From assembly GCA_965227835.1 (NCBI GenBank), contig OZ245768.1, positions 330,001-362,000 of the forward strand: a stretch of DNA of 32,000 bases, in the 5' to 3' direction. The position numbers were made by a program, and so were the translations under genes. Positions 1 through 32,000 of this stretch are shown one piece after another; the stretch's first letter is position 1, and the number at the start of each line of letters is the position of its first letter. The stretch comes from Candidatus Saccharimonadota bacterium. Its GTDB lineage: Bacteria > Patescibacteriota > Gracilibacteria > BD1-5 > UBA6164. The notes beneath the pieces were generated by a model. The model was not told where the DNA came from. It saw only the letters and a list, made by a program, of their open reading frames with translations, and made no database searches.

Positions 1-2
1 CT

Positions 3-428
3 GATTTTTGTGGATGAAGTAAGAGAAAGGAAAATCAGTGGAATGCTATATTAAATAATATAAATTGCTGTTTTAAGAGTATTCCTGCTTGAAAAAAATA
101 TCTTCAATGAATTGTAGAGAGATCTCATAGAACTGATGATGAAGAATTATATAGACCTTATCTTGATCGCATGAAATCTCTTCCTAATTTTTTAAACCAT
201 AGTAGTAAATATATTTATACTTATAATAATTATAGACCTTCTTTTTGAATAGGTATGAACGGTTTAAGTCCTATTGAAAAACTTAGAAGTTGTAATATAA
301 TTCTTCCTACAAAATTTAATAATTTCCCTGTCCTTATCCTAGATAATCTTGCTAAAATTGGTGGTACCTATCTAAAGGACCATTACCAGTTTAAATCTAG
401 ACCTATAAACCCGAGAAAATTTCGTTAA
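3..428 (+). CDS. IS-type DDE transposase/integrase (rve superfamily, IS481/IS3-like), C-terminal fragment; the 5' end lies outside the window
   Basis: The frame is open from the window edge to TAA 426-428. The UGA=Gly translation ...IPAGKKYLQGIVERSHRTDDEELYRPYLD...YNNYRPSFGIGMNGLSPIEKL... reproduces the conserved G-x-VER-x-HRT..EEFY ... YN..RPH..L.G..P block around the third catalytic acidic residue of rve-type transposases. Confidence 0.6.
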
Positions 429-1297: not shown

Positions 1298-1331
1298 TTT
1301 TGTTATCCATAATAAAAAGGAGGTCAAAAAA

Positions 1332-1604
1332 GTGATAACATTCAAATCCGTTCTTTTACTAAATTCTTCTTCTTTTTCTCGTTTAATTAAAAATGGTGAA
1401 AAAGCTTCTCTACCTAGTGAAGAGTTAGAAAAATATGGGAGAAAAATATCAAAAGAAAATCCTCCTAATAATTTTTTAATAAAAGAAGCTCTAAAGAAAT
1501 TTAATAAAGGACAACATCCAAATGCCACATGCTGGCAAGTTACAGATATTTTTATGTTAAATAGGTATTTCATATACCAATCTCTAAAAAAATTATCTGC
1601 ATAA
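1332..1604 (+). CDS. hypothetical 90-aa protein (TGA-free, SD-led ORF)
   Basis: GTG start 9 nt after AAGGAGG (1316-1322). There is no in-frame TGA, and all 3 Gly codons are GGN. It is bracketed by the 1266-1297 palindrome and a strong terminator. I recognised no homology. Confidence 0.5.
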   Translation: MITFKSVLLLNSSSFSRLIKNGEKASLPSEELEKYGRKISKENPPNNFLIKEALKKFNKGQHPNATCWQVTDIFMLNRYFIYQSLKKLSA

Positions 1605-4089: not shown

Positions 4090-7029
4090 ATGTTTAAAAA
4101 AAGAAAAATATTAAATAGAAAAAGAACATTTTCTTCTAAAAAATATTATAACAAAAGAAGTAAGAAACCATTTAGAATATTCAAGTGGTTATTGTTTCTT
4201 TTTGTATCTTTTGTTCTTTTTTCTTTTATCTTATCAGCAATATTATACAAAAAATATATAGAACCATTACCACCCGTAGAAGAAATAAAAAATATGGATA
4301 TAGCACAAACTTCCATAATTTATGACAAGTATTGAGATGAACTTTATAAAATATTTAAAGAAAACAGAACATATATAGATTATAAAGACATAAACAAAAA
4401 TATAATAAATGCTCTAGTTGCTTGAGAAGATCAAAGATTTTGGACTACACCATGATTTGATCTAATTTGAATAATTAGAGCGACTCTCAACTGATTAATA
4501 AGCTGAGATTTTAGATGAACATCTTGATTGTCTCAACAATTAATGAAAGTAACATATTTGACAAATGAAAGAACTTTAGAAAGAAAAATAAAAGAATTTT
4601 ATTTGTCATGGAAACTAAATAAAGTATTTGATAAACAAAAAATAATAGAACTATACCTAAACAAGATATTTTTTTGATCCAATGCATACTGAATAGAACA
4701 AGCAGCCAAAACATTTTTTTGAGTAAGTGCATCAGACTTATGAATACTGCAATCAAGTGTACTAGCTTCTCTACCCAAAGCTCCTTCATGACTTTCTCCA
4801 TATATGCACAAAGATAGACTTATGGGATACCCTTTCATTTTCAATATAAATCAACAAGAAGATAAAACTAAAATACTAAACCAAAAAGACATAGAAGAAA
4901 ACAAAATATTTCTATACAAACTTATAAAATTTATAGAAAATCTAGAAATAAAAAAAGTAAACAATCTAGCACTTATATGCAATATTGATAAAAGTCAGCT
5001 AAAACCATGAAGCTTTAGAGTTGACTCTGATTCTTGCTCTAGTATGTGATTTGAAGATTTACTAGGTTTTCTTAACTCCATAAGAATAAAAGATTGAGAT
5101 TATTTTATGGAATATCAAACATGAAGAAAAGACTATATACTTGGAAGAATGCTTGAAGATGAATATATAGATTTTGATAATTACAAAAAAGCTATAATTG
5201 ATAGCTTTGGCTTTGAATTCCAGAAATACAGAACAAACATTAAAAATCCACATTTTGTAATGTATATAAAGGAATATTTAGAAAAAAAATATGGCAAAGA
5301 AATTATAGAACAATGAGGTTTTAGAATATACACTACTCTAGATCCAGATTTACAAGAAAAGGCAGAAGAGATAGTTGAAAAATACTGAGAAATAAATGAG
5401 ACAAAATTTTGAGCTAGAAATGCAGCTCTCATAAGTTTAGACAATGAAACTTGATGAGTATTGGCAATGGTTTGATGAAGAGATTATTTTGATGAAGAAA
5501 ATGATTGAAATAACAATATGACAACTTCTAGACTACAACCATGAAGTACATTTAAACCATTTGTATATTGATTGGCTATAGAAAATAACAATATATGATC
5601 AGCTACACCTATATATGATCTACAAACTGAATTTCCATGAGATTATATTCCAAACAATTTTGATGGTGAATTTCAATGAAAAATGACTGTAAGCTCAGCT
5701 CTTAATAATTCTAGAAATATACCTGCCATAAAGATGTTTTATTTAGCATGATGAGAGGAAAAAATAATATCTTTTATGGAAAAACTAGGAGTAAAAACAC
5801 TTAGAGAATTCAAAGAAGAATACAAAGAAAAATATCCATGAAGAATTTATGTATATGCTGCTCCTATGGCACTTTGAACTGGTCTTATGACTCCTCTAGA
5901 GCTAGCTAGTGCTTATTCTACATTTGCCAATATGTGAATAAGGAAAGAAGTAAATCCAATAATAAGAATAGTTGATAGAAAATGAAATGTAATAGAAGAT
6001 ATAGAAAGACAAAAAGATGAAAAATCTGAAGATACAGTTATAGAACCTTCTCTAGCATATATTATAAACTCTATATTAAGTGATGAAAAATCAAGACCAG
6101 AGTTTTGGAACAACTATCTTAGTATACCTTGAAGGAAACTTGCATCAAAAACTTGAACTTCAACCAAACAATATACACAAGGCACAGAAAAGATAATAGC
6201 CCCTAGAAACCTCTGGACAGCTTGATATACTCCTCAAATTACAACCGTTAGTTGGGTTTGAAATACAAACTGAGAAGAGTTGTTCTTAAACTGAAACTGA
6301 CTTGAAGCAGCTTGACCTATTATGAAAGATTTTATGGAATATGCCCATGAATGAAAGAAAGTATCATCTTGGTCTAGACCTCTTTGAGTTGAAAATTTAA
6401 AAATTTCTTCTATATCTTGACTTCTACCTTGAGAATGATTTCCCTCCAATTTTCTAACAGAATCAAATTTTATAAATCCTCCTGTATCTTTTGATAATAG
6501 TTTAAAATTTGTAGAGGTGGATAGACTTTGTTTTTGAAAAGTCACAAAAAATACCCCAGTAGAAGCTATAAGGAGATGATATTTAGTTAATTTCCGTTCT
6601 ATAAATCCAGATAATCCTATGTGGGAAGAGCCTGTTTTGCAATGGGTAAATGATTGAGAATACAAAGAAAAATATTCAAAATTTTGAAATGTCATTACTT
6701 ATTACAGTTGAAAAGTTTGTTCTAGAAACTGAAAAGTAAATATAGTTACAAAAACTTCAATAGAGGATTCTAAACTTACAATAGGGAGAAATGACATAAA
6801 AGTATGATATGTAGCTGGTAGAAATATAAGAAAAATGGATATATATTTATGAAATAAGCTTTTAAAAAGTATTGATAATATAAATACATCTCAAAAGTGA
6901 TTTGATGTTGCTTTGTTTGTACCTTTTAATTTACTTTGAACAAAAGCCAATTTAAAAATTAGACTGGTTGATTCTCAATATTATTACTATGATAAGGATA
7001 TATATGTTGATGTAGTTAGTAGAGGTTAG
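4090..7029 (+). CDS. ponA: class A penicillin-binding protein (bifunctional glycosyltransferase/transpeptidase, PBP1A family)
   Basis: 980 codons, and every line was checked for TAA/TAG. GT51 motifs are EDQRFWTTPGFDLIGIIRA, SQQL and RKIKEFYLSWKL..K..IIELYLNKIFFGSNAYGIEQAAKTFFG. Transpeptidase motifs are RLQPGSTFKPFVY (SxxK), SRN and KTGTS. Confidence 0.95.
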
Positions 7030-7062
7030 TTTTAAAATTTGTTTTTTGGAATATTTTAAACG

Positions 7063-7092
7063 AAGACTTATTGTCTTATAATAAGTCTTTTT
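7063..7092 (+). terminator. intrinsic terminator after the PBP gene
   Basis: Stem aagacttat / ataagtctt followed by TTT. Confidence 0.6.
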
Positions 7093-7313
7093 AATATTCT
7101 TTTATTATAATTAAAAAAGAAAGTTAAAAACTTGCATTTATGTATTATTTAATTATAATTTACATTAAATTTAGTAGTTATGATTATTCATAATTCTAAG
7201 TTTTTATCGTTCTTTAAAACAACTCGAAAAATCACTTTAATAAATTTAGTTTTTGTACATTCATTTTACAATCTAGATTTATTTAAAATTGATTTCACAC
7301 ATTAATATCATAA

Positions 7314-8360
7314 ATGAACTTTAGGAGATTTTTTATGTTAAATAAAGTACTGAATAAACTGGATATATTATCATTATATTTTATAATGTTTTATATACTA
7401 TTTCTCATACTAAAATCATTTGAAGAAGTCATAATTCCATATGATTCTTTGATAGATAATGTCTTTAAAATGCTTTTTGTTATAGAAGTTTCTATTAGGG
7501 TTTTCATTCTTAAAAAATCCTTTTTTAAAGATAGAATCAATTTATTAGATTCACTTTTGTTGGTAATTTCTTTTATTCCCTCTTTTGAAATGCTTCGTGT
7601 AACAAGGCTATTTACATATTTTTTAAGAAAGCCTGAGATGAAAAAGATGTTAATGGCATTTCAGAAAGGTATGAAAGAAATTAAATACTGGACCCTTATC
7701 ATAGTTAGTGTATCAATTGTTTTTTCACTATTTTTGGAAAAACAGTTAGGTTACAAATACCCAGAACTTTGGGGTAACTTCTTTTTATCTATCCAAAACA
7801 TTATAGTAACTCCATTTTCTCTTAATGAGGAAAGGTTCTTCTTATCTGTGACTGATTCAAAAATTATTACAGGATTATTTGTAATCTACTTTGGTTTATT
7901 TATAGGATCTATAGTAGGTATGATTAATACAGTTGTAATTTCCCAACGAAATAATATAGATAACGAGGAACTTGAAAAAAATTTACTAAATAGTTTTCCA
8001 GAGGGATCTTATAGCCATGAGCAATACCATTCATCATTAAGGCAGTTATCTAATCTTAATGTTCAAGAACTTTTATCAAAAAGTGGCATAAGATATATGT
8101 TGAATGAAGAAGGCCCTTGGTCAGAATATAAAAGAATAGTTGAGAATAAAATAAGGGTTTTGCTTAATCATTGTATTCCAGTTGAATTTATATCTTCATT
8201 TCATTTTACACAACAGGATAACATAATAAGAATGAAATTAATGGGGGAAGAAATAGAAGATTCTATACCTATTAGGTTGAATATTGCTGAAAAAACCTCA
8301 TTAATTAATGCATTTAAACAATATGTTATTCTGAGATATGGAGAAGAAGCCTTGACCTAA
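7314..8360 (+). CDS. 6TM ion-transport (voltage-gated-channel-like) family protein with a soluble C-terminal domain; TGA-free, SD-led ORF
   Basis: 348-codon ORF with no in-frame TGA; all 13 Gly codons are GGN. The likely true start is ATG 7335, which sits 7 nt after AGGAG (7323-7327). The hydrophobic segments include an S3-like INLLDSLLLVISFIP and an S4-like LRVTRLFTYFLRK, followed by two further TM segments around a short re-entrant stretch. The family call comes from motif pattern only. Confidence 0.6.
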   Translation: MNFRRFFMLNKVLNKLDILSLYFIMFYILFLILKSFEEVIIPYDSLIDNVFKMLFVIEVSIRVFILKKSFFKDRINLLDSLLLVISFIPSFEMLRVTRLFTYFLRKPEMKKMLMAFQKGMKEIKYWTLIIVSVSIVFSLFLEKQLGYKYPELWGNFFLSIQNIIVTPFSLNEERFFLSVTDSKIITGLFVIYFGLFIGSIVGMINTVVISQRNNIDNEELEKNLLNSFPEGSYSHEQYHSSLRQLSNLNVQELLSKSGIRYMLNEEGPWSEYKRIVENKIRVLLNHCIPVEFISSFHFTQQDNIIRMKLMGEEIEDSIPIRLNIAEKTSLINAFKQYVILRYGEEALT

Positions 8361-8440
8361 AATAAGAAAGTGTGAAATTTTCGAGTTGTTAAATTTTTTT
8401 AAGTAAAAGTAGCATTTTATCTTGGAAACAATTATAACTC

Positions 8441-8466
8441 GTGTGAAAAAATTTCACACTTTTTTA
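8441..8466 (+). terminator. intrinsic terminator after the channel-like ORF
   Basis: Stem gtgtgaaa / tttcacac with loop aaa, followed by TTTTTT. Confidence 0.65.
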
Positions 8467-8643
8467 TTTTTTTAAAATTAAATATATATTTTTTGTATAC
8501 CTATATTTATGCACATTATGTATTATATACTCCATGTGTTTTCGAATTATTATTTTTGACTTTATTTTATAAAAAATATACTCTTAACTTGTTTGAGGTA
8601 GAACCTTGAAAAATTTATTTTATTTTTTAAATTTTTATAAATT

Positions 8644-9252
8644 ATGGAAGAAGTAATTTTTGAACAAGCTAAAATTGATAACACAGCACCTAGTTGGAAA
8701 ATGTCTTGCTATGATCCTAAAAAATGAGAAGACTGAAGTATTAGTAGCGATGATTTGAAAGGAAAATGGTATGTTTTAGTTTTTTATCCTGCTGATTTTA
8801 CTTTTGTATGTCCTACTGAAATGAAGGATTTAGCTGATCATAAATCTGTTTTTGATAAAATGGATGTGGAAGTATTATCTGTTTCTACAGACTCTGTTTT
8901 TTCTCATAAAGCTTGGTTAAAAACTGAAAAACTAATGGAAAATTTTGAATATAAAATGCTTTCAGATAGCACACTTGAAGCAAGTGATATTTATAATATA
9001 CTTGATGAAAATACCTGAATGGCTTGAAGAGGTACCTTTATAGTAGATCCAGATTGAATACTTAGATGAATTGAAGTTACTTCATGAGCTCAAGGTAGAA
9101 ACTCTGAAGAGCTAATTAGAAAAATAGAAGGTTTACAATATATGAGAGAAAATCCTTCAGTTGCATGTCCTGCAAAATGGTCTAATTGATCAAAAACTTT
9201 GACTCCTGATATAAAAATATCATGAGAAGTATATGAAGCTTTGAACAAATAA
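8644..9252 (+). CDS. ahpC: typical 2-Cys peroxiredoxin (AhpC/Prx1 type)
   Basis: 203 codons. Motifs are KGKWYVLVFYPADFTFVCPTE (peroxidatic Cys), SVSTDSVFSHKAW, RGTFIVDPDGILR and VACPAKW (resolving Cys). Confidence 0.9.
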
Positions 9253-9279: not shown

Positions 9280-9645
9280 AAAAAAATGTCCCTTAATCGG
9301 TCAGCTGAAGCTTAACGATTAAGGGACAAGGACTAAAAGGTTTTTTGTTAATTTCATCCTGGGCACTCGCACAGGATTTACACTAACCTGAACCTACAAG
9401 CCAAACACAAAGATAACTTTGCATTTTATTCTCCTTTTTTTAAGGGTGGGGTTGATTATTCACAGTGGACACTTCGCCATTTTTTTACAGGTGTTTTAGG
9501 AATAATCGTTATTAACAAGGATAGTAGCCATATTGGCGAGGCTACAATCATTATATGGTCAAGTTAAAGGTTAGACGACCATATAGTTCCCATCCATATA
9601 CATATCCATGGAGACTCAATAAAAGCAATACTTCTTTTAAGTCTT
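9280..9645 (-). ncRNA. unclassified structured RNA candidate (~360 nt) with its own promoter and terminator
   Basis: The region is visibly more G+C-rich than its flanks and holds no long ORF in any frame. Several 6-12 bp hairpins are present, for example tatatggtc/gaccatata at 9553-9586, gtagcc/ggctac at 9524-9545 and atcctg/caggat at 9355-9378. The predicted 5' end GACUUAAAAG can pair with CUUUUAGUC just before the terminator. I could not establish its identity. Confidence 0.5.
9288..9327 (-). terminator. strong intrinsic terminator of the RNA candidate (also downstream of ahpC)
   Basis: 12-bp stem gtcccttaatcg / cgattaagggac. An A7 run on the + strand gives U7 on the minus-strand transcript. 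Confidence 0.7.
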
Positions 9646-9696: not shown

Positions 9697-10095
9697 TTAA
9701 CTATCTTCTATTTTGACTAACTCACTGCATGACATTTCTCCCTTAAACTCTTGGGAAAGTTCAAAGAATTTTCTTAAAAATTCTATAATCCTTTCAATTC
9801 CTCTATCATTTTTGAGTGAAATATCTTTTTCTATTCTTATTGTCTGATTTGTATCTGCTGTGACTGTATCTTCATTTACTATCAAAGGTAAAGTTTCAAC
9901 TTCTTTGGTTTTTTTGTTATATCCTTCTATGTTGCTTCTAGATACATCTTCTATATGTTCTGAAAAACCACATAATTCTTGATAGTTGTATATTACCCCA
10001 ACTTCTCCTTGATATATTACAGGGTTACTTCCACAAGCAGAAAGTAAAGTCAAAGCTGAAACAACCAAAAAAGAGCTTCTAAAAAATTTAAACAT
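9697..10095 (-). CDS. small putative lipoprotein (TGA-free, SD-led ORF)
   Basis: 132 codons. The signal peptide plus lipobox is MFKFFRSSFLVVSALTLLSAC-G. AAGGAG lies 8 nt upstream of the ATG. All 7 Gly codons are GGN and none is TGA. Confidence 0.6.
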   Translation of the reverse strand: MFKFFRSSFLVVSALTLLSACGSNPVIYQGEVGVIYNYQELCGFSEHIEDVSRSNIEGYNKKTKEVETLPLIVNEDTVTADTNQTIRIEKDISLKNDRGIERIIEFLRKFFELSQEFKGEMSCSELVKIEDS

Positions 10096-10126
10096 AATAA
10101 ATCTCCTTTTTTCAAAAAATTTTAAG

Positions 10127-13774: not shown

Positions 13775-13785
13775 ATCTTAATCTA

Positions 13786-13925
13786 ACCTATAACCTCACC
13801 TTAGCATAAACCCTCATCCTAACCCGTAAAGCCCTCACCCTAATCCTTTCCAGCGCAACCTCACCCTAACCCTCTCCTTTGGAGGAGAGGGGAGAGAACA
13901 GTAGGTAGGTAGGACATGAGGGATA
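13786..13925. repeat. G+C-rich intergenic element: four degenerate CCTCAYCYTAAYCC repeats ending in an 8-bp GC hairpin
   Basis: Repeat cores start at 13794, 13812, 13833 and 13859. The hairpin is ccctctcc (13870-13877) / ggagaggg (13884-13891). The composition contrasts sharply with the AT-rich surroundings. Confidence 0.55.
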
Positions 13926-14021
13926 TAGAAAAGATATATAGGCATATATAATGGTGATTATTTTATTATAAACTAATTTACAAATTACTATACTATATAT
14001 TTATAAATAACATACAAAACT

Positions 14022-14156: not shown

Positions 14157-17100
14157 CTAATCATCATTATCATAAATTTGAATAATTTGTACCCCGTTTG
14201 ATGATGCAGAATCTGTTATTTCAGCTGTTATATACCGTCAACTTGTCCATCCTATATCAGGTGTAAAAGTTATATCTTTTAGAGTATTTCATGTTCCTGT
14301 AGATTGACTAAATATTCATAAAAGAGGGTTATTATCAGTATGATAAACATTTGAATATTTAAGTTCCCAAGTTACTTTTGATAAATCATCATCAGCTATA
14401 TCCAATCATATATTTGTCAGCTCACTACCTATTTCAAGATGACCATCTACAGTAATTCATGAAATTACTGGATCTGTATTTGTAGTAATTTCTCTTTCTA
14501 GGGTTGTTTTCTCCATTTCTCCATTTTCTCAATTCATTGAATCTACCAATATATATAACACATAAGTTACACCTGAGCTTAATCAAGTTTTAGTAATACT
14601 AGCACAGGTAGCAGAAGAAAAAGGTATATAATCTAAATCAGTAGGACTTACTCATTTTTCAAGTATAGCATAACTACAGCTTTGTAGAGATGGATTATCA
14701 CTATCTAGAGAAGCAGTAGCAGTAAAAGTGATACTATTATTATCAGAACTTACATTAGTTAGAGTAATAGTAGGGACATCATTTTCCAATATTTCAAAAC
14801 TATGTTCTAGAGTTTTAGAGTTTTCTGGGTTTTCTCATCAAATAGTTCAAGTTAAAGTAGCTTCGAATTTATAATTTCCTTTAGTTAAATTAAATTGTTT
14901 TAAATCAAAATCTGAAGAAACAGAGCTTTGTATATTTCAAGAATGATTTCAATTATAGATTGCATTTCAGTTATTATCATAAACTACCCAGCTATAAGTC
15001 CAAGTTCAGTCGTTATCTATTCAAGTAATAGAAAGTATTTGAGAATCCTCACTAACTCAAAATTGATTTTCACCAGAAATACTTCAAGAAATAGGAGAAT
15101 CATCATCTAAATCAGTAACAGTACATGTTATTTTTATTTGTTCATTAGCTTTCTTACCCAAAGAATCAACAACTTCAAAATAAGCTTCAAAACTTGTTGT
15201 TTGATCTAAACTAGGGAAACTACAAACTAATTCTCAAGTTACAGAATCAAAAGTCATATTATCTGGTAAATTTCAAACAGGGGTAAAGCTAATAGAATGA
15301 TTTTCAGGATCTGACACATAATCATTTAAATTTATAGATTGATCATTTGATCATTCATCTCAAGTTAAAGTTATATCTGAGTTACTAATTTCGGGAGCAT
15401 TGTTGATTTGAGTACTTATTTCTTGATTTATTATAGTATATTCTGTATTTCAAGTTATACCATTTTTTGATTTTACTCTTGTGTAAATCACATAGTTAGT
15501 ACCTGAATTTAATCAAGTTTTAGTAATACTATCACAAGTAGCAGAAGAGAATGCAGTATAATCTGAATCACTAGGATTTATTCAACTCTCTACTACTGCA
15601 TATTCACAAGTTTGCAATGAAGAGTTATCATTATCACTATCTATAGAAGCATTAGCAGTAAAAGAGATACTATTAATATCAGAACTTACATTAGTTAGAG
15701 TAATAGTAGGGACATCATTTTCTAATATTTCAAAACTATGTTCTAAAGTTTTAGAGTTTTCTGGGTTTTCTCATCAAATAGTTCAAGTTAAAACAGCTTC
15801 GAATTTATAATTTCCTTTAGTTAAATTAAATTGTTTTAAATCAAAATCTGAAGAAACAGAGCTTTGTATACTTCAAGAATGATTTCAACTATAGACTGCA
15901 TTTCAACTATTATCATAGATTTTCCAGCTATAAGTCCAAGTTCAGTCGTTATCTATTCAAGTAATAGAAAGTATTTGAGAATCCTCACTAACTCAAAATT
16001 GATTTTCACCAGAAATACTTCAAGAAATAGGAGAATCATCATCTAAATCAGTAACAGTACATGTTATTTTTATTTGTTCATTAGCTTTCTTACCCAAAGA
16101 ATCAACAACTTCAAAATAAGCTTCAAAACTTGTTGTTTGATCTAAATTAGGGAAACTACAAACTAATTCTCAAGTTACAGAATCAAAAGTCATATTACTA
16201 GGTAGACTTCAAACTAAATTAAAGCTAATAGAATGATTTTCAGGATCTGACACATAGTCATTTAAATTTATTGATTGGTTCTCTGATCATTCATCTCAAG
16301 TTAAAGTTATTTCTGAATTACTTACTTCGGGAGCATTGTTTGTATTTGTAGTAATTTCTCTTTCTAGGGTTGTTTTTTCCATTTCTCCACTTTCTCAATT
16401 TACTGAATCTACCGATATATATAACACATAAGTTACACCTGAACTTAATCAAGTTTTAGTAATACTATCACAGGTAGCAGAAGAAAAAGGTATATAATCT
16501 AAATCAGTAGGACTTACTCATTTTTCAAGTATAGCATAACTACAGCTTTGCATTGAGGGATTATCACTATCTAGAGAAGCAGTGGCAGTAAAAGAGATAC
16601 TATTATTATCAGAACTTACATTAGTTAATGTAATAGTAGGGACATCATTTTCTAATATTTCAAAACTATGTTCTAAAGTTTTAGAGTTTTCTGGGTTTTC
16701 TCATCAAATAGTTCAAGTTAAAACAGCTTCGAATTTATAATTTCCTTTAGTTAAATTAAATTGTTTTAAATCAAAATCTGAAGAAACAGAGCTTTGTATA
16801 CTTCAAGAATGATTTCAACTATAGACTGCATTTCAATTATTATCATAAATTACCCAGCTATAATTCCAAGTTCAGTCGTTATCTATTCAAGTAATAGAAA
16901 GTATTTGAGAATCCTCACTAACTCAAAATTGATTTTCACCAGAAATACTTCAAGAAATAGGAGAATCATCATCTAAATCAGTAACAGTGCATGTTATTTT
17001 TATTTGTTCATTAGCTTCTTTTCACTCAGAATCTGCTACTTTGAAATAAATTTCATAGCTAGTTGTTTTATCTAAACTAGGATAAATACATGTTACTATT

Positions 17101-17435
17101 CATGTTTTTTCATCAAAAGTCATATTATCTGGTAAATTTCAAACAGGGGTAAAGCTAATAGAATGATTTTCAGGATCTGACACGTAATCATTTAAATTTA
17201 TAGATTGATCATTTGATCACTCTTCTCAAGTTAAAGTTATCTCGGGAGTACTAATTTTAGGAGCATTATTTGATACATTATTTGAAGAATTTTCAGAGCC
17301 TCCTCCTCATCAAGATTCGCAAGAAGCTAGTATTAAAGATAATACTGATACTACAATACTTCCTCTAAAGCTAGGAATTTTTTTACTTTTTAACTTTTTA
17401 TCACCATTGATATATCCTATATTTTCTCTTATCAT
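14157..17435 (-). CDS. large surface lipoprotein, adhesin-like, with three tandem ~311-aa repeats (Ig/cadherin-like + PKD-like + FN3-like modules)
   Basis: 1093 codons. Both ends were translated and the length is divisible by 3. The N-terminus is ...SIVVSVLSLILASC-ESGGGGGS (lipobox). Repeats contain INLNDYVSDPENHSISF...LP.NMTFD..TG (putative-Ig type), DDDSPISGSISG...GIDNDGTW.YSW, and an FN3-like segment. The C-terminus ends ...VQIIQIYDNDD. Confidence 0.85.
14476..17270 (-). repeat. three tandem in-frame DNA repeats of 930-936 bp inside the adhesin-like gene
   Basis: Antisense shadow ORFs recur at 14928, 15864 and 16794, giving periods of 936 and 930 nt. Stretches longer than 100 nt are identical in all three copies, and other segments occur as two alternative variants. 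Confidence 0.9.
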
Positions 17436-19653: not shown

Positions 19654-20979
19654 TTAAATGTTCATAGTTTTTTCCATTTCAACAAATTTTTGATTATCTT
19701 TTCTAAACATAAGTTCTACATTTCATATTGGTCCATTTCTATTTTTCCTAATTAATATATCTGTTATTCATTTTCTCTCGGTAAATTCATCATAATATTC
19801 TTCTCTGTAAAGCATCATAACTATATCAGCATCTTGTTCTATAGCACCAGATTCTCTTAGATCTGACATTACAGGTCTCTTGTCTGGTCTTGTTTCTAGC
19901 TGTCTTGATAGTTGAGATAGTGCTATAACTGGTACATTTAGTTCACGAGCTAATGCTTTTATTCCTCTTGATATCTCTGATATTTCTTGGACTCTATTAA
20001 GTGAGCTTCAAGCACTCATAAGTTGTAAATAATCAATTATAACTAGATCAAGCCCAGACTCTATTTTTAATCTTCTACATTTTGATTTTAGCTCAATTAA
20101 ATTTCATCAAGCAGTGTCATCCATATATATATTTGCTTCACTAAGTTTTTCCATAGCTTCTCAAATTTTCATAAATTCTTCATCATCTAATTCTCATTTA
20201 GCTAGTTTCCAAGAGTTTATGGACATAGCACTAGCAATCATTCTATCTGTAAGTTGTTCTTTACTCATTTCAAGAGAAAATATAGCCACATTTTTTTTCT
20301 TAAATCATATATTTTGAGCTAGATTTAATGCAAAAGCAGTTTTACCCATAGAAGGTCTAGAAGCTATAACTAGCATATCTCATCATTTCAATCCACTTAA
20401 TTTATTATCCAAACTAGGAAAACCTGTATTTATTCTGTGGTTTTTTATCATTTCAGGGTTTTCATGAATTTCTGCAAATTCTTCATATCTTCCTGTTAGA
20501 ATTTCATTTATATGTACAAGTTTATTTTTTATAAAAATCTGGGTAACAGAGAAAAGTGATTTTTCAGCATTTTCCAAAAGAAGCTCTAGTTTTTCATCTT
20601 CACTATATCAATAAGATATTATTTCATTTCAGGTTTTTATAAGCTTTCTTAAAACAGATTTATTTTTAACTATACTTGCATATTCAAATATATTTGAACT
20701 TGTTGGTACTATTTCTGTTAATTCTGTCAGATATGTTATTCATCATATTTTTTCTAATATTTTTTTGTCAGCTAGTTTGTCTTTTACTGTTATTAAATCT
20801 ATTGGTTTATTTGATTTATATAAACCAAACATCACTTCAAATATAAGTGAGTTACTATCATCATAGAAGTCTTCATGGTTTATTAAGTCACTTATAGATA
20901 CAAATCAGTCTTTATCTATAAGTAGGCTTCATATAACAGATTGTTCAGCTTCTATACTGTGAGGTGGTATTTTTAGCAT
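19654..20979 (-). CDS. dnaB: replicative DNA helicase
   Basis: 442 codons. Motifs are [34 protein letters not shown], the Walker [15 protein letters not shown], and a RecA-like C-terminal domain. Confidence 0.95.
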
Positions 20980-31466: not shown

Positions 31467-32000
31467 ATGATTGATATAAATTTTTTCAAAAATTCCTGAT
31501 TCTTTGAAAAAAAGACTCTAAAAAAATGAGAGTATCTTTTTTGCGAATGAGAAGTGGATGAAAATATATATATAATAATAACTTGAGAACTTTTAATTGA
31601 AAAATTTACTAATCAAAATAAAGATGAAGCAAAAGTTTTAGCTAGTTTGAAAAAAGATGATGTTTTTTGAGAAGCAAGTCTCAACAACAACTTACCCAAA
31701 CAAGTAAGTATAAAAGCCAATAAAAAAACAGATATAATATATATAAATGCAATTTCGGGATTAAGGGATTTTTCTTCTAAATACCCAAATGAATCTTTTG
31801 ATTTATTAAAATATATAATACATTTATCAAATAATAGATTAAATGAATCAAATTCTTTGATAACAGCAAGTTACAAAATTAGTTCACTTATATCAAATAT
31901 AAATGATTTTAGTTTTAAAACTATTTTTCAATTAATTGAGGAAACAAAAATATTAACAGGTGTAAAAGATATAATATTTCTTGAAGAAAACCAAGTATTA
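31467..32000 (+). CDS. cyclic-nucleotide-binding domain protein (Crp/Fnr-like N-terminus), 3' end outside the window
   Basis: The frame stays open to the window edge (178 codons). The cNMP-binding pattern is KKGEYLFCEGEVDENIYIIITGELLI...DDVFGEASL....VSIKA...T.IIYI. Confidence 0.7.

What the first reader, a model, noticed from the sequence alone, without database searches (positions are those of the whole stretch)
7214..8466. A TGA-free, Shine-Dalgarno-led channel-like gene flanked by inverted repeats, part of a two-class gene dichotomy in this window
The 348-codon ORF 7314-8360 contains 13 Gly codons, all GGN and none TGA. If TGA supplies about 60% of Gly codons, as in sodB (10 of 17), zero of 13 has a probability of roughly 1e-5.

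The ORF has a good SD: AGGAG at 7323-7327, 7 nt before ATG 7335. I inspected the upstream regions of the 17 TGA-containing genes whose starts lie in the window and found no AGGAG-like SD in any of them. The only other ORFs without TGA (1332-1604 and 9697-10095) both carry AAGGAG(G) at ideal spacing. So TGA-free status and SD presence co-segregate 3 of 3 against 0 of 17.

The ORF is bracketed by an inverted repeat with a 13-bp perfect core: aacaactcgaaaa at 7218-7230 and ttttcgagttgtt at 8378-8390. Extra GTGTGAAA/TTTCACAC copies lie at 7293, 8370, 8441 and 8452. Base composition is as AT-rich as the rest of the window.

I see three possible readings. The genes may have been acquired from, or shared with, a standard-code SD-using donor such as a host, phage or plasmid. 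They may belong to a code-neutral mobile cassette. More speculatively, they may need to be translatable outside the recoded cell.
Basis: partly seen in the sequence, partly recalled or inferred. Interest (0 to 1): 0.75.

Follow-up and report, generated by a model that had tools for sequence, protein, structure and literature searches.

The report
TGA-free, Shine-Dalgarno-led accessory genes in Gracilibacteria
In a bacterium that reads the stop codon TGA as glycine, a strain-specific channel-like gene belongs to a small class of genes that avoid TGA and carry a classical ribosome-binding site, so they would read the same under the standard genetic code.

Summary
The window is Candidatus Gracilibacteria DNA (code 25). 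Nineteen ordinary genes use TGA for 71% of Gly codons and none has a Shine-Dalgarno (SD) site. ORF 7335-8360 has 0 TGA in 12 Gly codons and AGGAG 7 nt before its ATG. It encodes a divergent NavAb/BacNaV-like 6-TM protein with a degenerate selectivity filter and an orphan C-terminal domain.

The gene lies in a 1,522-bp segment (7023-8544) that is absent from a 94-96% identical relative, and its codon usage is the most atypical in the window. Its only homologue (45% identity) lies in another code-25 contig and is also TGA-free and SD-led.

Across 248 kb from 13 Gracilibacteria loci, TGA-free status and SD co-segregate: 13/2/1/178, P=2e-17. Members are mostly ORFan lipoproteins or secreted proteins in small variable islets. 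One two-gene module stays TGA-free and SD-led in three diverged genomes, which neutral decay does not explain (P~1e-4).

The 13-bp inverted repeat exists but lies inside the indel, is marginal (p~0.05) and is not a cassette border.

Best reading: a flexible pool of standard-code-compatible genes, kept that way by selection. No donor or phage was found.

The parts
7023..8544 (.). Strain-specific segment (1,522 bp) between the PBP1a stop and the Prx promoter region. In the 94-96% identical relative L002 it is replaced by 103 unrelated bp.
   Evidence: blastn of window against L002: homology ends at 7022 and resumes at 8545. The local alignment gives a sharp right junction at 8545.
7282..7311 (+). 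Promoter-like site (TTTAAA-18-TATCAT). It would put the transcript start near 7318, after ATG 7314 and before the SD.
   Evidence: Consensus scan. This is weak: the number of sites is not above the shuffle expectation.
7218..7230 (+). Left arm of the 13-bp perfect inverted repeat AACAACTCGAAAA.
   Evidence: It lies 195 bp inside the indel. Significance is about 0.05.
7293..7300 (-). GTGTGAAA copy (reads TTTCACAC on the + strand), between the promoter-like hexamers.
7323..7327 (+). Shine-Dalgarno AGGAG, 7 nt before ATG 7335.
   Evidence: The homologue P0002 has AAAGGAGG at the same place.
7335..8360 (+). CDS of 341 aa (an alternative ATG at 7314 gives 348 aa). It contains no in-frame TGA and ends in TAA. 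The protein is BacNaV-like with 6 TM helices, a shortened S4 and PFSLNE in place of the TLESW filter. The C-terminal part (about 125 aa) has no detectable relatives.
8359..8470 (+). Long imperfect 3' hairpin that includes the right IR arm (8378-8390) and GTGTGAAA at 8370.
   Evidence: RNA fold gives -40.7 kcal/mol, z=-6.6. IR pair I2 is 23 nt and 96% complementary.
8441..8469 (+). Intrinsic-terminator-like stem-loop GTGTGAAA-AAA-TTTCACAC followed by TTTTTTATTT.
   Evidence: the only terminator-like site in 6900-8800, against 0.3 expected.
8508..8537 (+). 30-nt intergenic motif TATGCACATTATGTATTATATACTC..., at the right end of the segment. It recurs elsewhere in the relative's genome.
   Evidence: blastn match to L011 1835-1864, 29 of 30.
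9697..10108 (-). Second class member: AAGGAG (10108-10103) plus a 132-aa lipoprotein gene (10095-9697; signal peptide with LSAC lipobox). It has 0 TGA in 7 Gly codons and evolves fast.
   Evidence: The orthologue in L002 has 0 of 6, an identical SD and signal peptide, and a mature part about 70% identical, while flanks are 94-96% identical at the nucleotide level.
1317..1604 (+). Third class member: AAGGAGG (1317-1323) plus a GTG-started 90-codon ORF (1332-1604). It has 0 TGA in 3 Gly codons and lies between two hairpins.
   Evidence: It is 305 of 305 nt identical in L002, but so is the neighbouring sodB. Coding status is less certain, because the antisense frame is also open.

Best explanation
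ORF 7335-8360 is a real, intact, self-contained accessory gene with its own SD and its own terminator. It encodes a divergent NavAb/BacNaV-type 6-TM channel-like membrane protein.

It sits in a 1.5-kb strain-variable segment between the core genes for PBP1a and Prx. It belongs to a minority class, about 7% of the genes sampled in 13 Gracilibacteria loci. Genes of this class would be read identically by a standard bacterial translation system and by the code-25 system: they have a canonical SD, no in-frame TGA and a TAA or TAG stop.

Most likely (inferred) these genes belong to a horizontally circulating, standard-code-compatible flexible gene pool. They would enter chromosomes as 1-3-gene islets by recombination in flanking core DNA. 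The organism encodes DprA and PilT, so uptake by transformation is plausible.

The TGA-free, SD-led state is then not only a relic of arrival but is kept by selection. In bulk genes TGA takes over about 70-80% of Gly codons and SD is absent.

Shown: the dichotomy, the presence/absence polymorphism, the atypical codon usage, BacNaV homology, and persistence of the state in diverged orthologues. Inferred: the foreign or flexible origin, the direction of the indel (gain), the mode of entry, and the reason for the constraint. Channel activity is not shown. The selectivity filter is not conserved.
For: (1) The dichotomy in the window is 3 of 3 against 0 of 19. Over 248 kb and 194 genes with at least 4 Gly codons the counts are 13 TGA-free with SD, 2 TGA-free without, 1 TGA-containing with SD (a single TGA), and 178 TGA-containing without. 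Fisher P=2.5e-17.

(2) Segment 7023-8544 is absent from the syntenic contig L002/L011, which is 94-96% identical.

(3) The target has the worst fit to the window's synonymous codon usage (-0.94 against about -0.75) and the highest GC3. Class genes have more G-ending Lys/Glu/Gln codons than bulk genes. This is the opposite of SodB, Prx, the RRM protein and PilT.

(4) Other class members also sit in variable islets. L005/L012 carries two genes between the miaB-like gene and valS that are absent in L003 and L015. L016 carries three genes after dnaB that are absent in L004 and L010. Their GC is 0.28-0.34 against 0.20-0.29 for the loci. One member is a DapD-like acyltransferase with 0 of 31 TGA.

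(5) The only homologue of the target among 1.84 billion representatives (P0002, 45% identity) has 0 of 11 TGA and AAAGGAGG. It lies between TGA-rich genes and IS remnants in another code-25 contig.

(6) The lipoprotein plus 380-aa module has 0 of 18, 0 of 21 and 0 of 18 TGA, and a conserved AAGGAGT-N5-ATG, in three genomes that are 64-78% identical in protein. Its synonymous divergence equals that of its syntenic flanks, where 13 of 62 conserved Gly sites switched between TGA and GGN. The neutral probability of no TGA is about 1e-4.

(7) Precedent: 34 of 38 predicted Gracilibacteria phages larger than 20 kb lack in-frame TGA (PMC10746230).
Against: No donor was found. There are no homologues of the target, the 380-aa protein, the 414-aa lipoprotein or the DapD-like gene in IMG/VR, INPHARED phages or PLSDB plasmids. 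The target also has none in GTDB species representatives or JGI metagenome contigs. All relatives that were found sit in code-25 contexts.

The segment holds no integrase, transposase or phage gene. Liu et al. found that integrated Gracilibacteria prophages are TGA-rich.

Without an outgroup the indel could be a deletion in L002. Overall GC of the target equals the genome's.

The loci sampled are mostly dnaB neighbourhoods, not a random genome sample, and some class members are orthologues of each other (about 9 independent families).
Confidence: 0.5

Rival explanations
1. Passive relic of a single recent transfer. The gene arrived recently from a standard-code, SD-using, AT-rich donor. It has simply not yet lost its SD or gained TGA, and no selection is involved.
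For: The gene is strain-specific and is a codon-usage outlier. TGA/GGN switching is slow at strain level: 3 of 228 conserved Gly codons between the window and L002. A TGA-free state could therefore last a long time.
Against: P0001 and P0002 are only 45% identical, yet both are TGA-free and SD-led inside code-25 genomes. No standard-code relative closer than about 30% identity exists among 1.84 billion representatives. Another class module kept the state through near-saturated synonymous divergence.
Confidence: 0.2
2. Host-internal regulon independent of UGA decoding. The class is kept TGA-free and SD-led so that it can still be translated when decoding of UGA by tRNA-Gly(UCA) is blocked or limiting. 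Examples would be phage infection, toxin activity or starvation. The channel-like protein and the lipoproteins would then act as envelope, exclusion or abortive-infection factors.
For: There is apparent purifying selection against TGA and for the SD in diverged orthologues. All known relatives sit in code-25 genomes. Members are mostly envelope proteins. The same avoidance is seen in predicted Gracilibacteria phages (PMC10746230). From my own knowledge, codon-selective translation after tRNA cleavage by VapC- or MazF-type toxins is an established principle in mycobacteria.
Against: There is no direct evidence for any state in which UGA decoding is switched off. PADLOC finds no defence family. 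The variable, islet-like distribution and raised GC look like horizontal transfer. A DapD-like enzyme does not fit an envelope or defence theme.
Confidence: 0.15
3. Highly expressed genes. A strong SD and avoidance of a slow or error-prone TGA codon mark the most abundant proteins, for example major surface lipoproteins.
For: Lipoproteins and secreted proteins can be very abundant. A thioredoxin gene in L014 is TGA-free, 0 of 6.
Against: SodB (10 of 17), Prx (9 of 13) and the RRM protein (6 of 9) use TGA freely and have no SD. Class genes have more G-ending codons, the opposite of those genes. A strain-specific ORFan is an unlikely top-expressed gene. Proteomics of a BD1-5 bacterium found 97 peptides unique to the UGA-as-Gly translation (PMC4032931).
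Confidence: 0.07
4. Genes meant to be expressed in the standard-code partner or prey cell after nucleic-acid transfer, analogous to T-DNA.
For: SD, no TGA, and Sec/lipoprotein signals or a membrane channel are what expression in a standard-code bacterium would need.
Against: No transfer apparatus, border repeats or clustering was seen. Members are scattered singly among core genes. There is no precedent between bacteria. One member is a cytoplasmic DapD-like enzyme.
Confidence: 0.03
5. Chance or artefact: a short, Gly-poor ORF, a chimeric assembly, or a non-coding ORF.
For: The ORF is Gly-poor (3.4%).
Against: P is about 4e-7 for 0 of 12. A 349-codon open frame in 25% GC DNA is not chance. There is a 45% identical homologue with conserved TM architecture. 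The same arrangements appear in independent assemblies (L005, L006 and L007; window and L002).
Confidence: 0.01

Closest known systems
Bacterial voltage-gated sodium channels (BacNaV: NavAb, NavMs, NaChBac; Pfam Ion_trans PF00520)
   Same: The protein has six TM helices in S1-S6 order. It keeps the conserved S2 Glu, S3 Asp, two S4 Arg and the PE(L)(F/W)G motif before the pore helix. A two-sequence profile hits NavAb at E=8e-9, and the AF2 model's best Foldseek matches are NavAb and NavMs.
   Different: The Pfam score (23.8) is below the gathering cut-off (25). S4 is shortened by about 9 residues and keeps only 2-3 basic positions. The TLESW selectivity filter is replaced by PFSLNE (FSLND in P0002). 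The C-terminal coiled coil is replaced by an orphan part of about 125 aa that is modelled poorly. Identity is about 20%.
[quoted passage not shown] 2023, mBio, PMC10746230)
   Same: Genes associated with code-25 hosts that lack in-frame TGA and would read the same in both codes. The authors infer an advantage in keeping that state.
   Different: Here the genes are single chromosomal genes or 1-3-gene islets with no phage hallmark genes and no match in phage collections. That paper found integrated prophages to be TGA-rich and did not report SD co-segregation.
Horizontally acquired genomic islets and phage 'morons' (self-contained gene with its own promoter and terminator between core genes; often lipoproteins or exclusion proteins). 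From my own knowledge.
   Same: Presence/absence between close strains, atypical codon usage, an autonomous unit between two terminators, and enrichment for lipoproteins and membrane proteins.
   Different: No phage context and no identifiable donor. The expression signals differ in kind (SD against no SD; one codon's use) from the resident genome, and appear to be maintained rather than ameliorated.
Integron cassettes and MITE- or IS-type elements with terminal inverted repeats
   Same: A single ORF followed by a long imperfect hairpin, with inverted repeats on both sides.
   Different: The IR arms are not at the indel ends. There is no integrase or transposase, no recurrence of the repeat in 248 kb, and no RYYYAAC/GTTRRRY core sites.

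Membership tests
BacNaV / Ion_trans (PF00520) | Significant match to the family model at the curated threshold | tested here: not met
   23.8 bits against a cut-off of 25, E=3e-5. Homology is nevertheless supported by the profile-against-PDB match at E=8e-9.
BacNaV / Ion_trans (PF00520) | Six-TM fold with a voltage-sensor-like domain (S1-S4) and a pore domain (S5-P-S6) | tested here: met
   In the AF2 model, residues 1-225 have pLDDT of about 85-93. The best Foldseek matches are NavAb and NavMs, with target-normalised TM-score 0.5-0.64. The MSA contained BacNaV sequences, so the test is partly circular.
BacNaV / Ion_trans (PF00520) | S4 with four or more basic residues at every third position | tested here: not met
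   The alignment shows a deletion of about 9 residues. Only R95 and R98 are aligned, plus R105/K106.
BacNaV / Ion_trans (PF00520) | Selectivity filter T-L-E/D-S-W | tested here: not met
   The aligned residues are PFSLNE (target) and LFSLND (P0002). The Trp is absent and the acidic residue is shifted.
BacNaV / Ion_trans (PF00520) | Ion conduction and tetramer assembly | not testable with these tools
   This needs electrophysiology or a multimer structure.
Code-11-compatible phage genes of Gracilibacteria | No in-frame TGA; termination at TAA or TAG | tested here: met
   0 TGA in 349 codons, with a TAA stop.
Code-11-compatible phage genes of Gracilibacteria | Located on a phage genome, or homologous to phage genes | tested here: not met
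   No phage genes in 7023-8544. No hits in IMG/VR, INPHARED or PHROGs.
TIR-bounded mobile cassette (IS, MITE or integron cassette) | Inverted repeats at the ends of the variable segment | tested here: not met
   The indel ends are at 7023 and 8544. The IR arms are at 7218-7230 and 8378-8390.
TIR-bounded mobile cassette (IS, MITE or integron cassette) | Repeat beyond chance, and recurring at other copies | tested here: not met
   p is about 0.05 in shuffles. There is no other copy in the window, and only one 13-mer hit in 216 kb of other loci.
TIR-bounded mobile cassette (IS, MITE or integron cassette) | Associated transposase or integrase; target-site duplication | tested here: inconclusive
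   No recombinase lies in the segment. A possible AATTA duplication cannot be told from chance in this AT-rich DNA.
Horizontally acquired islet | Presence/absence polymorphism between close relatives | tested here: met
   The segment is absent from L002/L011, which is 94-96% identical at the nucleotide level.
Horizontally acquired islet | Atypical composition or codon usage | tested here: met
   Lowest synonymous-codon log-likelihood and highest GC3 of 22 genes.
Horizontally acquired islet | Identifiable donor lineage | tested here: not met
   The only close homologue is in another code-25 contig.

The most novel reading that the evidence does not exclude
Code-25 Gracilibacteria keep, by selection, a dedicated set of code-neutral, SD-dependent genes, mostly for envelope proteins and including this channel-like protein. 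These genes remain translatable when UGA-Gly decoding is unavailable or when the message is read by a standard translation system. Possible settings are infection by TGA-free phages, attack on tRNA-Gly(UCA), or expression in the partner cell. That would be a second, code-independent expression channel inside a recoded genome.
Probability: 0.2. Interest if true: 0.85.

Novelty: new variant of a known kind. Interest (0 to 1): 0.62.

Why it matters
Codon reassignment is usually seen as a genetic firewall. After transfer, incoming genes should either fail or be absorbed into the new code.

Here a recoded lineage carries a recognisable minority of genes that stay readable under the standard code and use a different initiation signal from the rest of the genome. 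At least one module has kept that state over deep divergence.

If this reflects a shared gene pool, it gives a simple sequence marker (no TGA plus an SD) for tracing gene flow across a code boundary in uncultured episymbionts. If it reflects internal selection, it points to a physiological state in which UGA decoding is switched off.

In practice, these genes are the ones that gene callers using the wrong code still predict intact. They could also be expressed in E. coli without recoding.

Tried and rejected
- **Rfam and ARAGORN on the window:** no RNA genes found. The TGA-free ORFs are therefore not explained as known RNA genes.
- **Homologues of the target:** searched in 5.8 billion clusters, 1.84 billion representatives, GTDB genomes, JGI metagenome contigs, IMG/VR, INPHARED and PLSDB. 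Only the protein itself and P0002 were found.
- **Family libraries:** PHROGs, PADLOC, Pfam and NCBIfam give nothing for the class ORFans, apart from the marginal Ion_trans match of the target noted above, the DapD-like protein and thioredoxin.
- **Exact-pattern search for the source genome in GTDB representatives:** not found. The source contig (1,489,121 bp, NCBI/ENA) could not be fetched, so no true genome-wide scan was possible.
- **IR as cassette border:** rejected.
- **The 100% nucleotide identity of ORF 1332-1604 as a sign of special constraint:** rejected, because the neighbouring sodB is also 100% identical.
- **5' leader structure 7100-7340:** unremarkable, z=-2.4.
- **Campbell et al. 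2013:** could not be read.
Full report
**1. What the window is**

With TAA and TAG as the only stops, ORFs of at least 100 codons total 38 kb over both strands (overlaps included), against 6 kb under table 11. Code-25 translations give full-length SodB, LytR, PBP1a, Prx, PheS, TrpS, RNase H, DnaB, DprA, a MutS-like protein, an RRM protein and PilT. DnaB is 75-83% identical to proteins named Candidatus Gracilibacteria. The source is a 1,489,121-bp NCBI/ENA contig. GC is about 25%.

**2. The observation**

- Nineteen ordinary genes use TGA for 389 of 551 Gly codons (71%). None has an SD-like motif before its start.
- ORF 7314-8360 has 12 Gly codons, not 13. All are GGN. P is about 4e-7.
- AGGAG at 7323-7327 lies 7 nt before ATG 7335. 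A promoter-like site ending at 7311 would exclude ATG 7314, but this is weak evidence.
- The two other TGA-free ORFs are confirmed. One is 10095-9697, a 132-aa lipoprotein with 0 of 7 and AAGGAG. The other is 1332-1604, with a GTG start, 0 of 3 and AAGGAGG.
- The 13-bp inverted repeat and the GTGTGAAA copies exist. However, an IR of this length and G+C content arises in 5% of shuffles. Its right arm belongs to a 112-nt 3' hairpin (z=-6.6). The tip of that hairpin is an intrinsic-terminator-like stem followed by a T run.

**3. What the gene encodes**

Pfam gives Ion_trans just below threshold (23.8 against 25 bits). A full HMMER scan of 1.84 billion representatives finds one real homologue, P0002 (45% identity, E=4e-42), and then BacNaV-type channels at 22-32% identity.

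A profile built from the two sequences hits NavAb in the PDB at E=8e-9. An AF2 model has pLDDT of about 90 for residues 1-225 and is poor for 230-348. Its best Foldseek matches are NavAb and NavMs.

The alignment keeps the S2 Glu, the S3 Asp, two S4 Arg and the PExxG motif. But S4 is shortened, and the TLESW filter is replaced by PFSLNE in the target and FSLND in P0002. The gene is therefore a divergent BacNaV-like protein. It "works like a channel" only by inference. The C-terminal 125 aa have no relatives. PADLOC, PHROGs and NCBIfam are silent.

**4. Presence/absence**

The lipoprotein's only homologue (P0016) led to contig L002/L011. This contig is syntenic with the window and 94-96% identical. 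There, PBP1a and Prx are separated by 103 unrelated bp. Window 7023-8544 is missing. Homology ends at the PBP1a stop and resumes sharply at 8545.

Both IR arms, the ORF, the hairpin and the terminator lie inside this segment, so the IR is not its border. The target is also the codon-usage outlier of the window: synonymous log-likelihood is -0.94 against about -0.75, and GC3 is 0.225 against 0.10-0.19. Without an outgroup, gain and loss cannot be told apart, but these features favour gain.

**5. The homologue**

P0002 sits on a 3.5-kb JGI contig with 23.7% GC. It is flanked by a gene with 8 TGA and 0 GGN, and by IS remnants that contain TGA. P0002 itself has 0 TGA in 11 Gly codons and AAAGGAGG 8 nt before its ATG.

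**6. The class beyond the window**

I fetched dnaB neighbourhoods and related loci from other Gracilibacteria (L003-L016). I called genes with TAA and TAG as the only stops.

Counts over 248 kb and 194 genes with at least 4 Gly codons:

| | With SD | Without SD |
|---|---|---|
| TGA-free | 13 | 2 |
| TGA-containing | 1 | 178 |

The two TGA-free genes without an SD are a thioredoxin and a DnaB from a genome that uses little TGA. The single TGA-containing gene with an SD has only one TGA and lies in an islet of class genes. Fisher P=2.5e-17. Because some members are orthologues, this represents about 9 independent families.

Members are:
- lipoproteins (LSAC, LTAC, VAGC, IVGC and LSGC lipoboxes);
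- a 380-aa secreted protein;
- small ORFans;
- the channel-like pair P0001/P0002;
- one DapD-like acyltransferase with 0 of 31 TGA.

They lie in 1-3-gene islets that related genomes lack at the same place. L005/L012 can be compared with L003 and L015, and L016 with L004 and L010. Their GC is often raised (0.28-0.34). They have more G-ending codons than bulk genes, which is the opposite of SodB, Prx, the RRM protein and PilT. An IS481-like transposase fragment and a DDE transposase in these genomes do contain TGA. Native mobile elements are therefore not in the class.

**7. Relic or maintained?**

Between the window and L002, only 3 of 228 conserved Gly codons switched between TGA and GGN. A TGA-free state can therefore outlast strain-level divergence.

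The lipoprotein plus 380-aa module tells a different story. It occurs in three genomes (L012, L013, L014) with protein identity of 64-78%. A TGA-rich neighbour lies downstream in all three, and between L013 and L014 the synteny runs over several further genes. Its synonymous divergence equals that of its flanks. In those flanks, 13 of 62 conserved Gly sites switched state. In the module, 0 of 18 (+3) did, although GGT/GGA exchanges are frequent there.

A two-state model gives P of about 1e-4 for no TGA under neutrality, with a bootstrap upper bound of 1e-2. The SD (AAGGAGT-N5-ATG) is conserved while the surrounding spacer diverges. Likewise, P0001 and P0002 are far beyond synonymous saturation and both remain TGA-free.

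Either the state is under selection, or these genes are repeatedly re-imported from a pool that keeps it.

**8. Comparison with what is known**

Liu et al. 2023 (PMC10746230) reported that 34 of 38 predicted Gracilibacteria phages larger than 20 kb have no in-frame TGA. They suggested that compatibility with both codes broadens host range. They also found integrated prophages to be TGA-rich. That is the closest precedent for a TGA-free gene pool around code-25 hosts.

I found no paper describing a chromosomal, SD-linked class. The anti-SD is reported as rarely lost, and in that CPR data set was detected less often only in a Parcubacteria subgroup (PMC9297842). An SD should therefore work in this lineage. 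I could not check the 16S rRNA of this genome.

**9. Verdict**

The IR-cassette idea is rejected. The "foreign or shared, code-neutral" idea is the best available reading, with two additions: the state seems to be maintained, and no donor is visible.

The expression-level rival is disfavoured by TGA-rich, SD-less SodB, Prx and RRM genes, and by the direction of codon bias. Two readings remain open minority possibilities: a UGA-independent regulon, and expression in the partner cell.

The main limits are:
- no genome-wide scan of the source genome;
- sampling biased to dnaB neighbourhoods;
- small counts behind the neutrality test;
- no expression or functional data.

Noticed in passing
window 9285-9645 (- strand): A non-coding stretch of about 360 nt, richer in GC, between Prx and the lipoprotein gene. 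It has a TTGACA-17-TATAAT-like promoter just upstream (about 9675-9648) and a strong terminator hairpin at its end. It folds at -111 kcal/mol, z=-7.3. It is conserved in L002 and matches no Rfam family. It contains an SD plus ATG mini-ORF of 13 codons. This is a candidate for an undescribed structured RNA.
   Followed up: partly
window 13775-13930: A C-rich tract with degenerate CCTCACC / CCCTAA-like repeats, followed by GGAGGAGAGGGGAGAG, in the intergenic region after the 655-aa FecR-like gene. Unexplained.
   Followed up: no
window 1-428: A fragment of an IS481/rve-type transposase with TGA-Gly codons (4 of 9). It is absent at this position in the relative (homology to L002 starts at 388). 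Native IS elements use the recoded codon, unlike the TGA-free class.
   Followed up: partly
window 9697-10095 (- strand) vs L002 5654-6049: The lipoprotein gene evolves unusually fast. There are 38 non-synonymous and 20 synonymous differences in 130 codons, a rough dN/dS of 0.6 against 0.08 for PBP1a. The SD and signal peptide are identical.
   Followed up: yes
window 8508-8537 and L011 1835-1864: A 30-nt intergenic motif TATGCACATTATGTATTATATACTC(C/T)ATG is shared (29 of 30) between the right end of the strain-specific segment and an unrelated intergenic region of the relative. It could be a promoter or operator, or a recombination microhomology.
   Followed up: partly
window 8441-8459, 8370-8377, 7293-7300: GTGTGAAA / TTTCACAC half-sites resemble CRP/FNR-type TGTGA...TCACA boxes, with N7 spacing in the terminator palindrome. 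One half-site lies between the promoter-like hexamers of the target. A cNMP-binding Crp-like gene starts at 31467.
   Followed up: no
window 14157-17435 (- strand): A 1,093-aa surface protein built of three tandem repeats of about 310 aa (about 930 bp). The repeat region aligns in several registers with L002.
   Followed up: no
L016 11576-13861: An islet of three SD-led genes directly after dnaB: a 414-aa lipoprotein (0 of 31 TGA), a 125-aa protein (0 of 6) and a 133-aa protein (1 of 8). It is absent from related loci L004 and L010. The one-TGA member may show the start of assimilation.
   Followed up: partly
L013 17492-18556 (- strand); L014 12783-13094: A DapD-like hexapeptide acyltransferase (0 of 31 TGA, GGAG, GC 0.34) and a thioredoxin (0 of 6 TGA, no SD) sit in Gracilibacteria genomes with 21-23% GC. 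Recognisable enzymes can therefore also be TGA-free.
   Followed up: partly
L008 (JGI 3300010216, 1.19-Mb contig): A Gracilibacteria genome with 34% GC uses TGA for only 27% of Gly codons, and its dnaB has none. TGA use scales with AT content across the lineage.
   Followed up: no
P0017 vs window 19654-20979: The public protein for this genome's DnaB carries Trp at all 16 TGA positions. The protein collection therefore holds this genome's product translated with TGA read as Trp, as in code 4, rather than as Gly (code 25).
   Followed up: yes
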